64,000 bases of DNA, from NCBI GenBank assembly GCA_009914755.4, contig CP086569.2, positions 18,816,001 to 18,880,000 of the forward strand, in the 5' to 3' direction. Shown here in pieces: positions 22,850 to 64,000 of this stretch. The notes beneath the pieces are model-generated. The model was not told where the DNA came from, made no database searches, and saw only the letters and a program-made list of their open reading frames with translations. The stretch comes from the human T2T-CHM13v2.0 reference genome, Homo sapiens. Numbering within the stretch: position 1 is the stretch's first letter; each line of letters begins with the position of its first letter. A program made the position numbers and the translations under genes.

Positions 22850-23290
22850 GAGCACTATGTATCTGTCCCTTCAACTATTCAATATGTGCAGTGGCGGAAT
22901 CGCTATGACGCAAATAGTTTGGAATTATAGATCCTATCTGAAGTTTTGAAGCTTTCAAAAGACGATTTGTAAAGTCAACAACAATTAAGTTCGATCAACT
23001 TTATAGCATAGGTCAACAGCAGTTATTTATTCCTATCAACTATTGCCGTGGTGTGCAGCCTTGCAAATACTTCTGGAGCAGCTGGCAATAGCCACGATAG
23101 GCAAAAAAGACCTTATCCTCCAAATCTCAGGAGGACTGGCTAACCGATTGCTGTTTCTTATTACGGAGGTCCTGCGAGTGGTGAACAGTCATTTTTCATT
23201 TTCCAAACCTTTTACAGGCTTTTTCTCCTCCTACTCAAGTAACTTTCAGACGATTTACAAAGGCAGAGCCTTTCTTTCCTAATTTTTCTT
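22850..23290. other. Locally CpG-enriched unique segment at the outer edge of the left arm (about 11 CpGs in 400 bp against near-zero background)
   Basis: ggcggaatcgctatgacgcaaatag...aagacgatttg...gttcgatcaac...ttgccgtggtg...gccacgatagg...ctaaccgattg...attacggaggtcctgcgagtgg...cagacgatttac. Its mirror runs off the window at 63,770-64,000. No recognisable repeat family or protein domain. Confidence 0.5.
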
Positions 23291-23608
23291 TTCTTTTTCT
23301 CTCTCTTTAGAGGCCAGAGAATGATAGACAAAACATTCAAAGAAAACATATGTAAGTGAAAATTTAGAATAAAATGTGTTGCTACACATCTGTGCTCCAC
23401 AATGATGTAGCCTCAAGAAAAGCCCCCAACAAAATCAGTAAGACTGATTGTCATGACAGAAATAGCCTAGATGATGAATAAACAAATCCCTAGCAAGCTA
23501 CAGAGGGAGAAAATCTGATTTTCAAAGGTACAACACTTGAAAATTTATATGCCTGTTTTCGACACCAACAGAATCACATAGCATAAGGTGAAATAAGAAA
23601 GTGTGGTT

Positions 23609-23898
23609 CGGCCGGGCGCGGTGGCTCACTCCTGTAATCCCAGCACTTTGGGAGGCCGAGGTGGGCGGATCCCGAGATCAGGAGATCCAGAACCATCCTG
23701 GCTAACACGGTGAAACCCCGTCTCTACTAAAAAAATTAGCCGGGCGTGGTGGCGAGCGCCTGTAGTCCCAGCTACTCTGGAGGCTGAGGCAGGAGAGTGG
23801 CGTGAACCTGGGAGGCGGAGCTTGCAGTGAGCCGAGATCTCGCCACTGCACTCCAGCCTGGGGAACAGAGCGAGACTCCGCCTCAAAAAAAAAAAAAA
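23609..23898 (+). mobile_element. AluY-like element (young, near-consensus) with poly-A tail
   Basis: ggccgggcgcggtggctcactcctgtaatcccagcactttgggaggccgaggtgggcggatc...gcgagactccgcctcaaaaaaaaaaaaaaaa. Very close to the AluY consensus, with many intact CpGs. Its mirror copy is at 63,159-63,448 (-). Confidence 0.9.
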
Positions 23899-23995
23899 AA
23901 GAAAGGAAAGAAAAGAAAAGAAAAGAAAAGAAAAGAAAAGAAAGAAAGAAAGAAAGAAAGAAAGAAAGAAAGAAAGAAAGAAAGAAAGAAAGAGA
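23899..23995. repeat. (GAAAA)n/(GAAA)n microsatellite in the Alu tail. This is the only indel (5 bp) between the arms.
   Basis: gaaaggaaagaaaagaaaag...gaaagaaagaaag. The mirror at about 63,060-63,158 has different unit counts. The ORF-pair coordinate sums shift from 87,062 to 87,057 across this point. Confidence 0.85.
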
Positions 23996-60300: not shown

Positions 60301-63158
60301 ATTCCTGCATTAAGTGGCTAGTGATTTCGAACATCTTTTCATGTGCTTATTGGCTGTGGATTTGTAAATGATTTCTTGGCTATATCACTGACTGAACACA
60401 AAACATAAGAAAAAATAGATCACTTGAACTTCATCAAAACTAAACACTTTTGTGCGTCAAAAGACACTGTCAGTATAGTGGAAAGAAAACCACCAGCATG
60501 GGACACAATATTTGCAAGTCATATATATGGTATATATTCATATCACCCACTTGGATCTCTTCCTAACGCACTCTTCTCTTTTTCTTACTCTAAAATATTT
60601 TAAATAAACATCCCCTTTTGCTGTGAAACCTTTCTCAGTCTCCTTTGCTACTTTACTCCCCTCAGTCAAATTCTTTCTCCTGAGGAGGCAAGAGTTGAGG
60701 TTACTGCAGACCATGATAGATTTGACGCCAGTAACTCAGATAACTTCCACTGGTAACAGGTCGAGGGGCTGCTGGACAGGGTGGCGGGAGTTCATGTCTA
60801 GTGTGTGGCTGGCCTGGCCCCAGGCAGTTCTGGACTGTGGAGGGATCAGAACCCCATGCTGCAAGCACTCTGTGGAAAGAGCGCTCACGTTGCTGAGAGA
60901 ATGCTGAGGAAGAAATTTTGTCTTTTTAGTGAGGTTAAATTCCTTCATGTAATATAAAATTAACTGTTTCTTAATGAATTCCTTAGTGATCTTTAGTACG
61001 TGCATATTTGTGTGCAACTACCACATCTTAGTTCCAAAGTATTTTCATTATTCCAAAAGGAAATACCCTACTTATTAAGAAGCTCCTACCCAATCTGTCC
61101 TCTTTCTGACACCAGCACCAATAATCTGCATTTTTTCTCTATGGATTTACCTACTCTAAATATTTATACAAATAAAATCATACACTATGTGACTTTTGGC
61201 TCAGCTTCTTGAGCCAAAATTTAAGTTTCTTCACATTGTAGCATTAGAGTTGTAATCCTTTTCACAGCTGAATAGTATGCCGTTGTATGGACATACTACA
61301 TTTTGTTTCTTATTTTTTGTTGGTGGACATTTATTTGGTGTGTTTCCAGATTTTAGTTATTGTGAATGCTGCTATGAACATACGCATACATATTTTTGTT
61401 TGAATACCTCTTTTACATTTTTTTTTGTGTATATAGCTTGGAGTGCATTTTGGGGGTTCTATGGTAATTTTATGTTTAGCTTTTGCAGAACCACCAAACT
61501 ATTTTCCACAGTAGCTGCAGCATTTTTCTTTCACATTTTCCCACTTCCATTTCCAATTGTGGAGGTGCACATTTTTGTATCTTTTATATTGTTTATATAT
61601 TTATCTTTTCCTTAATCTTTACTTATTCACACTGCTGTTTCATGTCTGTTCATTTTATCCTGAAATACTCCATAAAGCATTTCTTAAAGGGTAGTCTACT
61701 GGTAAAAGACTGCAGCTTTTACATGGGAATTTTATAATATCTCTCTCACTTTTGATGGGCAGTTAGTGTAGGCATAAGATTTCTGTTAAAAGTTTTTTTC
61801 TTACAGCATTTGGCATATCTTAGTCTACTGCTTTCTGACCTCTGAATTTTCCGAAAAGAAATCCACTGATTACTCATGGGGGTTCTTTTTACATGACCAG
61901 TCACTTCTCTTGCAACTTTCAAGTTTCAAGTTGTTTTTGTTTTAGAAAGGTTAATTATCAAGTAAGTTTGAATGTGTTTGAGTTTATGCTGCTTGGAGTT
62001 TGTTGAACTTCTTTGGTGTTTATTTATTTCCTCAAATTTATGACCTTTCTGACCACTACTGTTTTAGTCTCCTTTAGGAGGACTGCTTGATGGTGTCCCA
62101 CTGGTTTCTAGGTTGTTTTCACAGTTTTTATTTATTTATTTATTTATTTGTTCCCTTCTTGACTTAACAATTTCAACTGCCCTTTTCTTAGATCTGCTGA
62201 TAGTTTGTTCTTCTATCTTCTCAAGTGTCCTTTTAAATCTCCGTAGAGTTTTTTTGTTTGTTTGTTTTTGATTGAGTTTTCCTCTGTCACCAGGGTGGAG
62301 TTCAGTGAGGCCACCTTGGCTGACTGCAACCTCTACCTCCTGATTTCAAACAATTATCCTGCCTCAGCCTCTCAAGTAGCTGGGACTACAGGCTCATGCC
62401 ACCACACCCTGCTAATTTTTGTGTTTTTTAGTAAAGACAAGGTTTCACCATATTGGCCAGGAAAATCTTCATCATTTGACCTCATGGTCTAACCGACTTG
62501 GCCTCCCAAACTGCTAAGACTGCAGGCGTGAGCCACTGTGCCAGGCTGTAGTAAATTTTAGTGACAGTTGTTTAACTTTTCAGCTCCAGATATATAAGTA
62601 TATATATATAATATATATACACACACACATATATATACACATATATACACATATATTTATATTATATATTAAATAAAAATATATTATATATAATATAGAA
62701 ATATATTTTTATGTATTCTATATATATATAGACTAAAGTCTAACATAATCTAAAGTCTAAGATATATGTATAGATAGATAGATAGGTAGGTAGTTAGATA
62801 GATTAGAGAGAGAGAGAGAGAGAGAGAGAGAACCACTGAACCTGGCCTAGAATTTCCTTCTTAGTTTTACTGTGAGTTTACTTTATTGTAAGTTTACTGT
62901 CTATTAATAATTTTTTTCTGTTCATGGCTTTCTGTGCTTTTCTTCATTGCATTAGCTTTCTAAAAAAAATCATGAATTTAAAAAATTATTTTTTAGTTAG
63001 CCTGCCATTTGGGCCACCTGGGAAAAGCTTCTGTTAGTGATTTTTTTTCTTTCTAGGGTGAACCACTCTTTCTTTCTTTCTTTCTTTCTTTCTTTCTTTC
63101 TTTCTTTCTTTCTTTTCTTTTCTTTTCTTTTCTTTTCTTTTCTTTTCTTTCCTTTCTT

Positions 63159-63448
63159 TTTTTTTTTTTTTTGAGGCGGAGTCTCGCTCTGTTCCCCAGG
63201 CTGGAGTGCAGTGGCGAGATCTCGGCTCACTGCAAGCTCCGCCTCCCAGGTTCACGCCACTCTCCTGCCTCAGCCTCCAGAGTAGCTGGGACTACAGGCG
63301 CTCGCCACCACGCCCGGCTAATTTTTTTAGTAGAGACGGGGTTTCACCGTGTTAGCCAGGATGGTTCTGGATCTCCTGATCTCGGGATCCGCCCACCTCG
63401 GCCTCCCAAAGTGCTGGGATTACAGGAGTGAGCCACCGCGCCCGGCCG
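63159..63448 (-). mobile_element. Mirror AluY-like copy (right arm)
   Basis: Reverse complement of 23,609-23,898. ORF 63171-63431 equals ORF 23626-23886. Confidence 0.9.
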
Positions 63449-64000
63449 AACCACACTTTCTTATTTCACCTTATGCTATGTGATTCTGTTGGTGTCGAAA
63501 ACAGGCATATAAATTTTCAAGTGTTGTACCTTTGAAAATCAGATTTTCTCCCTCTGTAGCTTGCTAGGGATTTGTTTATTCATCATCTAGGCTATTTCTG
63601 TCATGACAATCAGTCTTACTGATTTTGTTGGGGGCTTTTCTTGAGGCTACATCATTGTGGAGCACAGATGTGTAGCAACACATTTTATTCTAAATTTTCA
63701 CTTACATATGTTTTCTTTGAATGTTTTGTCTATCATTCTCTGGCCTCTAAAGAGAGAGAAAAAGAAAAGAAAAATTAGGAAAGAAAGGCTCTGCCTTTGT
63801 AAATCGTCTGAAAGTTACTTGAGTAGGAGGAGAAAAAGCCTGTAAAAGGTTTGGAAAATGAAAAATGACTGTTCACCACTCGCAGGACCTCCGTAATAAG
63901 AAACAGCAATCGGTTAGCCAGTCCTCCTGAGATTTGGAGGATAAGGTCTTTTTTGCCTATCGTGGCTATTGCCAGCTGCTCCAGAAGTATTTGCAAGGCT

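What the first reader, a model, noticed from the sequence alone, without database searches (positions are those of the whole stretch)
23057..64000. Near-perfect genomic palindrome: arms of at least 18.7 kb, 3.46-kb spacer, essentially identical arms
Seen directly: 23,057-41,802 is the reverse complement of 45,260-64,000, with a symmetry axis near 43,531. The right arm is cut by the window end, so the true arms may be longer. All mirrored ORF pairs translate identically except one residue (L/M, nucleotide 30,959 vs 56,103). The only coordinate offset is a 5-bp length difference in a (GAAAA/GAAA)n tract (23,899-23,995 vs about 63,060-63,158). Even a 400-bp compound TG/TA microsatellite (34,318-34,726 vs 52,336-52,744) and other STRs appear identical in length. 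Those loci mutate quickly. Such identity means either ongoing arm-to-arm gene conversion, as documented for primate sex-chromosome ampliconic palindromes, or a very recent inverted duplication. The architecture also predicts cruciform or hairpin potential, isodicentric rearrangement risk and cloning or assembly instability. The spacer length and CDY-family content hint at a Y-chromosome-type palindrome, but I cannot confirm the locus.
Basis: partly seen in the sequence, partly recalled or inferred. Interest (0 to 1): 0.85.

Follow-up and report, generated by a model that had tools for sequence, protein, structure and literature searches.

The report
Centre of a known Y-chromosome palindrome
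The window holds the centre of a giant, almost perfect inverted repeat of the kind already well described on primate Y chromosomes (most likely human palindrome P5), whose two arms are kept identical by copying from one another; it is real but ordinary.

Summary
Bases 23,057-41,802 are the reverse complement of 45,260-64,000, around a 3,457-bp unique spacer. Substitution identity is 99.984%. The left limit, 23,057, only mirrors the end of the window, so the arms are longer.

The DNA is primate (20 Alu matches, L1 and ERV fragments). The "CDY content" is a decayed CDY pseudogene with 9 stop codons, frameshifts and an Alu insertion. It lies in the spacer, not in the arms. No intact gene is present.

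The locus is most likely the centre of human Y palindrome P5:
- The spacer length fits only P5 or P8.
- Published P8 spacer-spanning primers and the P8 (TG)23 repeat are absent.
- A perfect (TA)14 repeat lies 41.6 kb from the spacer, which matches the published hg19 positions of a P5 (TA)15 pair to within 54 bp over 86.7 kb.

P5 is reported as shared with macaque (>25 My). Arms that old would differ at roughly 580-860 sites here, against 3 observed. Ongoing arm-to-arm gene conversion is therefore the best explanation, not recent duplication. This is textbook biology: already known, low interest. I could not align the window to a human genome, so the locus name is inferred.

The parts
23057..41802 (.). 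Left (proximal in window) palindrome arm, visible part. The left limit is set by the window end on the other arm, not by biology.
   Evidence: reverse complement of 45260-64000, 18,746 bp, 3 substitutions plus one STR length difference.
41803..45259 (.). Unique spacer, 3,457 bp, GC 40.8%.
   Evidence: The only internal inverted similarity is between Alu copies, and the ends show no decayed palindrome.
45260..64000 (.). Right palindrome arm, cut by the end of the window.
1..23056 (.). Probable further part of the left arm. Its mirror would lie beyond position 64,000. It contains the (TA)14 run at 171-198 used to place the locus.
   Evidence: Inference: the (TA) run lies 41,603 bp from the spacer, as expected for the (TA)15 pair listed for P5 in hg19.
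42131..44039 (+). CDY-lineage pseudogene (chromodomain plus enoyl-CoA hydratase-like domain). It has 9 in-frame stops, frameshifts and an Alu insertion.
   Evidence: tblastn. Pfam Chromo and ECH_1. Best database hits are primate Y-linked CDY at 51% identity and 528 bits, against about 46% and 455 bits for autosomal CDYL. It branches at the base of the simian CDY clade.
42329..42620 (+). Alu inserted into the pseudogene between the chromodomain and the rest of the coding region.
44330..44625 (-). Second Alu in the spacer, in inverted orientation relative to the first.
41772..41851 (-). Alu 3' fragment that straddles the inner edge of the left arm (arm end at 41802) and continues into the spacer.
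   Evidence: Alu consensus positions 206-286.
45262..45290 (+). Mirror copy of only the last ~29 bp of that Alu, abutting non-Alu spacer sequence. 45259|45260 is therefore the rearrangement junction of the founding inverted duplication, with no obvious microhomology.
   Evidence: The reading as the founding junction is inference.
28019..28019 (.). Arm difference 1 (T; partner 59043 reads C on the reverse complement).
30959..30959 (.). Arm difference 2 (A; partner 56103 reads T on the reverse complement).
41119..41119 (.). Arm difference 3 (C; partner 45943 reads T on the reverse complement), 683 bp from the spacer.
23886..23993 (+). Compound A-rich microsatellite grown from the tail of the Alu at 23610-23891. 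It is the only length difference between the arms: (GAAAA)6(GAAA)13(GA)2 here against (GAAAA)7(GAAA)11(GA)1 at about 63069-63171.
34318..34726 (.). Compound TG/TA microsatellite, identical in the mirror copy at 52336-52744.
36805..40413 (+). Degenerate L1 element in the arm, seen as broken ORF2 pieces (endonuclease, reverse transcriptase, C-terminal part). Mirror copy at 46649-50257.
   Evidence: Exo_endo_phos, RVT_1.

Best explanation
The window is the central part of a large primate Y-chromosome ampliconic palindrome, most probably human palindrome P5 (Yq11.22; arms about 496 kb, spacer about 3.5 kb). An old inverted duplication created two arms around a unique spacer that is mostly a dead CDY pseudogene. 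Since then the arms have been kept almost identical by frequent intrachromosomal, non-reciprocal recombination. The arms pair, a break in one arm is repaired from the other, and new mutations, including repeat-length changes, are either erased or copied across. The 3 substitutions and the one unstable A-rich repeat are the small standing crop of differences expected at the balance between mutation and conversion. When the same intermediates resolve as crossovers, they invert the spacer (within a chromatid) or make isodicentric and acentric Y chromosomes (between sister chromatids). Shown here: the structure, the complete list of arm differences, the primate origin, and the CDY-lineage pseudogene in the spacer. 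Inferred: the chromosomal address, and therefore the age and the conversion mechanism.
For: The structure and identity are shown. Substitution divergence is 1.6e-4, with a 95% CI of 0.3-4.7e-4. That brackets the 0.021% mean human Y arm-to-arm divergence attributed to Rozen 2003 in PMC3403216. The DNA is primate: 20 Alu matches. The spacer pseudogene belongs to the Y-linked CDY lineage rather than autosomal CDYL: 528 vs about 455 bits, and 15 vs 4 diagnostic residues. The spacer is 3,457 bp. P8 has 3.4 kb (PMC6790999), and the P5 arm coordinates in Balaresque 2014 leave about 3.3 kb between arms. The other human Y palindromes have very different spacers: P6 46 kb, P4 about 40 kb, and the rest from my memory of Skaletsky 2003. 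P8 fails two tests. Its one-primer spacer-spanning PCR primers are absent from the window. Its (TG)23 repeat, expected near window position 9,420, is also absent. P5 passes a test. The (TA)15 pair listed at hg19 chrY:20,021,497-527 and 20,108,240-270 is 86,712 bp apart. The window's perfect (TA)14 at 171-198 predicts 86,658 bp. The window has only 4 perfect dinucleotide runs of at least 12 units in 45 kb, so a chance match within 100 bp has a probability of roughly 1-2% (my estimate). P5 is reported as conserved with a rhesus macaque palindrome, i.e. older than 25 My (PMC7585023). At published Y mutation rates (PMC8600007), unconverted arms of that age would differ at about 580-860 of these 18.7 kb, against 3 observed. 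Identity of several microsatellites fits the published homogenisation of palindromic Y microsatellites by conversion (PMC4233959). The P5 arms colocalise in Hi-C, and the P5 spacer is recurrently inverted.
Against: I could not align the window to any human or ape genome, so the species and the P5 address rest on one microsatellite-position match, the spacer length and the CDY-lineage pseudogene. Two perfect dinucleotide runs in the window, (CT)25 at 4137-4186 and (TA)16 at 6718-6749, are not in the published P5 list. I attribute this to their being embedded in imperfect repeat records, but I did not verify that. The arm GC content (39.9%) is not higher than the spacer's (40.8%), so the window shows no trace of GC-biased conversion. 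Three differences are too few to test any bias. Nothing in the window alone separates conversion from a duplication about 0.1 My old.
Confidence: 0.8

Rival explanations
1. It is a very young inverted duplication, roughly 0.1 million years old or less, that has simply not had time to diverge. No gene conversion is needed.
For: With 3 substitutions in 18,741 bp and published Y mutation rates, the unconverted age would be about 87,000-130,000 years. Nothing in the window contradicts that. New Y palindromes do arise in living human lineages (PMC6790999).
Against: The geometry matches P5, and P5 is reported as shared with macaque. The compound STR differs by three separate unit-count changes, while several other long, unstable repeats are identical. 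That pattern fits repeated homogenisation with one fast locus better than it fits a single recent copy, though the argument is weak.
Confidence: 0.06
2. It is a genuine conversion-maintained palindrome, but not human P5. It could be another ape's Y palindrome, an X-chromosome palindrome or an uncatalogued one.
For: No genome alignment was possible. Human X palindromes span the same range of arm identity and spacer size, 77 bp to 358 kb (PMC8327919). The two unlisted perfect dinucleotide runs leave some doubt about the match to hg19.
Against: The spacer pseudogene belongs to the Y-linked CDY lineage. The (TA) repeat spacing matches hg19 P5 to 54 bp in 86.7 kb, or 0.06%. That is closer than I would expect between species, though this is my judgement and not a measurement.
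Confidence: 0.11
3. It is an assembly or cloning artefact: a fold-back chimera or a mis-joined collapsed repeat that creates a false inverted duplication.
For: Large near-identical repeats are a known source of assembly error. The P5 spacer orientation is itself considered unreliable in both GRCh38 and T2T-Y.
Against: Fold-back chimeras have no spacer or only a tiny one. Here a 3,457-bp unique spacer sits between asymmetric boundaries, with an Alu that is continuous on one side and truncated on the other. The arms carry a few genuine differences. The dimensions match an independently published structure.
Confidence: 0.03

Closest known systems
Human Y-chromosome palindrome P5 (Skaletsky et al. 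2003; yel3/yel4 amplicons, CDY2A/CDY2B and XKRY in the arms)
   Same: The spacer is about 3.5 kb. Arm identity is about 99.98%. A (TA)~15 repeat lies 41.6 kb from the spacer, in line with the published hg19 coordinates. CDY-family sequence is present. No protein-coding gene lies in the spacer.
   Different: Nothing contradictory was found. The window covers only the central 64 kb, so the arm genes CDY2 and XKRY and the outer boundaries are not visible. The identification is indirect, because no genome alignment was possible.
Human Y-chromosome palindrome P8 (VCY palindrome)
   Same: The spacer length is almost the same (3.4 kb), and it belongs to the same class of structure.
   Different: The published P8 spacer-spanning primers V4P01F and OG1F are absent from the window. 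The P8 (TG)23 repeat expected about 32.4 kb from the spacer is absent. There is no VCY-related sequence.
Primate X-chromosome palindromes (Jackson et al. 2021)
   Same: They are inverted repeats longer than 8 kb with more than 99% arm identity, and they are maintained by gene conversion.
   Different: [quoted passage not shown] Here the spacer carries a pseudogene of a Y-linked lineage, and the geometry matches chrY coordinates.
Short-spacer DNA palindromes that extrude cruciforms and act as fragile sites (e.g. the PATRR type)
   Same: Both have inverted-repeat symmetry.
   Different: Those have arms of tens to hundreds of bp with little or no spacer. A 3,457-bp spacer makes classical cruciform extrusion implausible. 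Instability here comes from homologous recombination between the arms.

Membership tests
Primate sex-chromosome ampliconic palindrome (operational definition used by Jackson 2021 and Makova 2024) | Inverted repeat with arms of at least 8 kb | tested here: met
   At least 18,741 bp of arm is visible, truncated by the window end. The definition is quoted.
Primate sex-chromosome ampliconic palindrome (operational definition used by Jackson 2021 and Makova 2024) | Arm-to-arm identity of at least 98-99% | tested here: met
   99.957% counting gap columns and 99.984% for substitutions only.
Primate sex-chromosome ampliconic palindrome (operational definition used by Jackson 2021 and Makova 2024) | Spacer of at most 500 kb, and arms not mostly simple or satellite repeats | tested here: met
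   The spacer is 3,457 bp. The arms are a mix of unique sequence, L1, ERV and Alu, with only short simple repeats.
Primate sex-chromosome ampliconic palindrome (operational definition used by Jackson 2021 and Makova 2024) | Located on a sex chromosome | tested here: inconclusive
   The evidence is indirect only: a CDY-lineage pseudogene and a positional match to hg19 chrY microsatellites. No genome alignment tool was available.
Palindrome maintained by arm-to-arm gene conversion (Rozen et al. 2003) | Arm-to-arm divergence far below the divergence between orthologous arms of different species | not testable with these tools
   No ape or macaque genomic sequence is accessible here. Published values for human Y palindromes are 0.021% arm-to-arm against 1.44% human-chimpanzee. 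The window's arm-to-arm value is 0.016%.
Palindrome maintained by arm-to-arm gene conversion (Rozen et al. 2003) | Paralogous variants found in pseudo-homozygous and pseudo-heterozygous states across a Y phylogeny | not testable with these tools
   This needs population data. The three candidate sites are 28019/59043, 30959/56103 and 41119/45943.
Human Y palindrome P5 | Spacer of about 3.5 kb | tested here: met
   The spacer is 3,457 bp. The 3.5-kb figure is from my memory of Skaletsky 2003. The published hg19 arm coordinates leave about 3.3 kb between the arms.
Human Y palindrome P5 | Known sequence landmarks at the right distance from the centre | tested here: met
   The (TA)15 pair in hg19 is 86,712 bp apart, and the window predicts 86,658 bp. 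Only this one landmark falls inside the window.
Human Y palindrome P5 | CDY2 and XKRY gene copies in the arms; arms of about 496 kb | not testable with these tools
   These lie outside the 64-kb window. No intact gene was found in the visible arm.
Human Y palindrome P8 | Published spacer-spanning primer sites in both arms close to the spacer | tested here: not met
   V4P01F and OG1F (PMC6790999, Table S1) have no match with up to 2 mismatches.
Human Y palindrome P8 | (TG)23 repeat about 32.4 kb from the spacer | tested here: not met
   It is expected near window position 9,420. No TG repeat is there.
Cruciform-forming short-spacer palindrome | Spacer of zero to a few tens of bases | tested here: not met
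   The spacer is 3,457 bp.

The most novel reading that the evidence does not exclude
The window may not be reference P5. It could be an uncatalogued or structurally variant Y palindrome, in a human lineage or another ape, that formed next to an ancient CDY pseudogene. In that case the asymmetric inner boundary would preserve the founding breakpoint of a non-homologous inverted duplication: the Alu is continuous on the left and cut to 29 bp, with no microhomology, at 45259|45260.
Probability: 0.07. Interest if true: 0.3.

Novelty: already known. Interest (0 to 1): 0.1.

Why it matters
Y-chromosome palindromes matter because arm-to-arm gene conversion is how a non-recombining chromosome preserves its testis gene families. 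The same recombination produces AZF deletions, spacer inversions and isodicentric Y chromosomes that cause infertility and sex disorders. This has been established since 2003 and has been refined with complete human and ape Y assemblies. The window adds nothing new to that picture. Its practical value is as a positive control: a scan of raw sequence correctly picked out a real, extreme structural feature. Two details are useful for annotation. The CDY-like sequence at the centre is a dead pseudogene in the spacer. The inner boundary cuts through an Alu.

Tried and rejected
- Exact-protein look-ups of two window ORFs (42886-43170 and 29662-30120), tried in order to find independent contigs and sample information: nothing on record.
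- Two exact-match scans of metagenome contigs, one for the right junction and one for a spacer-unique 36-mer, hoping for contaminating human Y contigs as independent confirmation of the junction: no hits.
- Rfam scan of the whole window: no family reached its gathering score.
- Human P8 was considered because of its 3.4-kb spacer. It was rejected by the primer test and the microsatellite test.
- P1/P2 (2.1-kb spacers), P3, P4, P6 and P7 were rejected on spacer length. P4 and P6 come; the others come from memory.
- An intact CDY gene in the arms was rejected. The only CDY similarity is in the spacer, with 9 stops.
- An autosomal CDYL origin of the pseudogene was rejected.
- A decayed extension of the palindrome into the spacer was rejected. 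Only Alu-to-Alu similarity was found.
- A GC-content signature of biased conversion was not seen: arms 39.9%, spacer 40.8%.
- Bhowmick 2007 and Lange 2009 are not held in the library, and the supplementary palindrome table of PMC13252187 is not held. I therefore found no published description of what the P5 spacer contains.
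Full report
**Observation.** A BLASTN of the window against its own reverse strand returns one dominant alignment: 23,057-41,802 against 64,000-45,260, with 18,746 columns, 99.957% identity, 3 mismatches and 2 gap openings. 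A global alignment of the two arms lists every difference. The substitutions are at 28,019/59,043, 30,959/56,103 and 41,119/45,943. There are five gap columns, all inside one A-rich repeat at 23,886-23,993. Written in repeat units, that tract is (GAAAA)6(GAAA)13(GA)2 on the left and (GAAAA)7(GAAA)11(GA)1 on the right. That is three separate unit-count changes with a net difference of 5 bp.

The spacer is 41,803-45,259, or 3,457 bp. Every other simple repeat in the arms is identical in the two copies, including the roughly 400-bp compound TG/TA tract and an imperfect (TA)73. There are three substitutions, not one. Position 23,057 is only the mirror image of the window end, so the arms are longer than 18.7 kb and the left 23 kb of the window may well belong to the arm.

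**What the sequence is.** The DNA is primate. No intact gene is present, and no Rfam family reaches threshold.

The "CDY-family content" is real but different from what the finding implies. The only CDY similarity lies in the spacer (42,131-44,039, + strand). It is a pseudogene with nine stop codons, frameshifts, and an Alu inserted between the chromodomain and the hydratase-like domain. A database search puts it closer to primate Y-linked CDY (51% identity, 528 bits) than to autosomal CDYL (about 46%, about 455 bits). In a small tree it branches at the base of the simian CDY clade. It shares 15 of the residues that separate CDY from CDYL with CDY and 4 with CDYL. It shows no preference between catarrhine and platyrrhine CDY states (17 vs 18). 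It is therefore an old, dead member of the Y-linked CDY lineage.

**Boundaries.** The inner end of the left arm falls inside an antisense Alu 3' fragment (41,772-41,851) that continues into the spacer. The right arm starts with only the mirrored last ~29 bp of that Alu, directly abutting non-Alu sequence. So 41,802|41,803 is simply the edge of what was copied, and 45,259|45,260 is the junction made by the founding inverted duplication. I see no microhomology there; this reading of the junction is inference. The spacer ends are not a decayed continuation of the palindrome, because the only inverted similarity inside the spacer is between its Alus.

**Which palindrome.** I could not align the window to a genome, so I tested published landmarks. 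Among the eight human Y palindromes only P5 (3.5 kb, from memory of Skaletsky 2003) and P8 (3.4 kb, PMC6790999) have a spacer of this size. P6 has 46 kb, and the P4 copies of DYS385 are about 40 kb apart.

P8 fails two tests. Shi et al. amplified the P8 spacer with single primers that bind in both arms close to the spacer (V4P01F, OG1F), and neither occurs in the window even with two mismatches. The P8 (TG)23 pair listed by Balaresque et al. predicts a repeat near window position 9,420, and there is none.

P5 passes a test. The same table lists a (TA)15 pair at hg19 chrY:20,021,497-527 and 20,108,240-270, which are 86,712 bp apart. The window has a perfect (TA)14 at 171-198, 41,603 bp from the spacer, and that predicts 86,658 bp, a difference of 54 bp or 0.06%. 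The window has only four perfect dinucleotide runs of at least 12 units in 45 kb, so such a match is unlikely by chance (roughly 1-2%, my estimate).

One caveat applies. The window's (CT)25 and (TA)16 runs are not in that table. I think this is because they sit inside imperfect repeat records that a perfect-repeat filter would drop, but I did not verify it.

My conclusion is that the window is most likely the centre of human P5, and all of it then lies inside that palindrome.

**Mechanism.** Substitution divergence between the arms is 1.6e-4 (95% CI 0.3-4.7e-4). That is the same order as the published human mean of 0.021%. Without homogenisation this would mean an age of only about 90-130 thousand years at published Y mutation rates. 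P5 is reported to be shared with a rhesus macaque palindrome, i.e. older than 25 My. Arms of that age would differ at about 580-860 sites in this stretch, against 3 observed. If the locus is P5, ongoing arm-to-arm gene conversion is the only adequate explanation.

Several published results fit this:
- Conversion rates are about 2e-4 per base per generation.
- Tracts can be multi-kilobase.
- Palindromic Y microsatellites are homogenised.
- The P5 arms colocalise in Hi-C.
- The P5 spacer inverts recurrently, and its orientation is considered unreliable in both GRCh38 and T2T-Y.

Crossover between sister chromatids gives isodicentric Y chromosomes. Classical cruciform extrusion is not plausible with a 3.46-kb spacer (established knowledge).

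The window itself shows no GC enrichment of the arms over the spacer (39.9% vs 40.8%), and three differences are too few to test for bias.

**Rivals.** Four alternatives remain:
- A very recent duplication is not excluded by the window alone, but it conflicts with the P5 match.
- Another conversion-maintained palindrome (another ape, or the X chromosome) remains possible at about 10%, because the address is indirect.
- An assembly artefact is unlikely, given the long unique spacer, the asymmetric junctions, the genuine arm differences and the agreement with independent published coordinates.

**Verdict.** This is a real and striking structure that was correctly read by the first stage, and it is a well-known one. 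Novelty: already known. Interest: low.

Noticed in passing
window 2637-2695: A perfect (ATAG)14.8 tetranucleotide repeat sits next to an Alu-like sequence. If the window is P5, it would be a two-copy palindromic Y-STR about 39 kb from the spacer. It is not in the list of exploited palindromic STRs that I read.
   Followed up: partly
window 4105-4200: A (CT)25 run lies inside a longer imperfect CT tract and is followed by a run of about 14 C and by (CTTT)n. A perfect (TA)16 lies at 6718-6749 inside an imperfect TA tract. Neither is in the published P5 dinucleotide list, which is the main loose end in the locus assignment.
   Followed up: partly
window 16351-18411: Endogenous-retrovirus pol remnants (an RVT_1 match at 16351-16719 and further broken ORFs) lie in a GC-richer block (43-45% GC, 14-20 kb). 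A 300-bp AAGC/AGGA low-complexity tract follows at 19057-19368.
   Followed up: no
window 571-1088 and 10071-10579: A pair of inverted copies about 520 bp long and 77% identical, roughly 9 kb apart in the left flank. They are probably two old copies of one interspersed repeat.
   Followed up: no
window 42329-42620 and 44330-44625: The two Alus in the spacer are in inverted orientation (70% identical) and bracket most of the CDY pseudogene. This is a small inverted repeat nested in the spacer of the large one.
   Followed up: partly
The forensic marker DYS385 in P4 has a similar setting: an Alu is listed next to it in the table read.
   Followed up: partly
window 32859-33729 (minus strand): ERV-type RNase H fragment (Pfam RNase_H) inside the arm, upstream of the TG/TA compound microsatellite. 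It is mirrored in the right arm.
   Followed up: no
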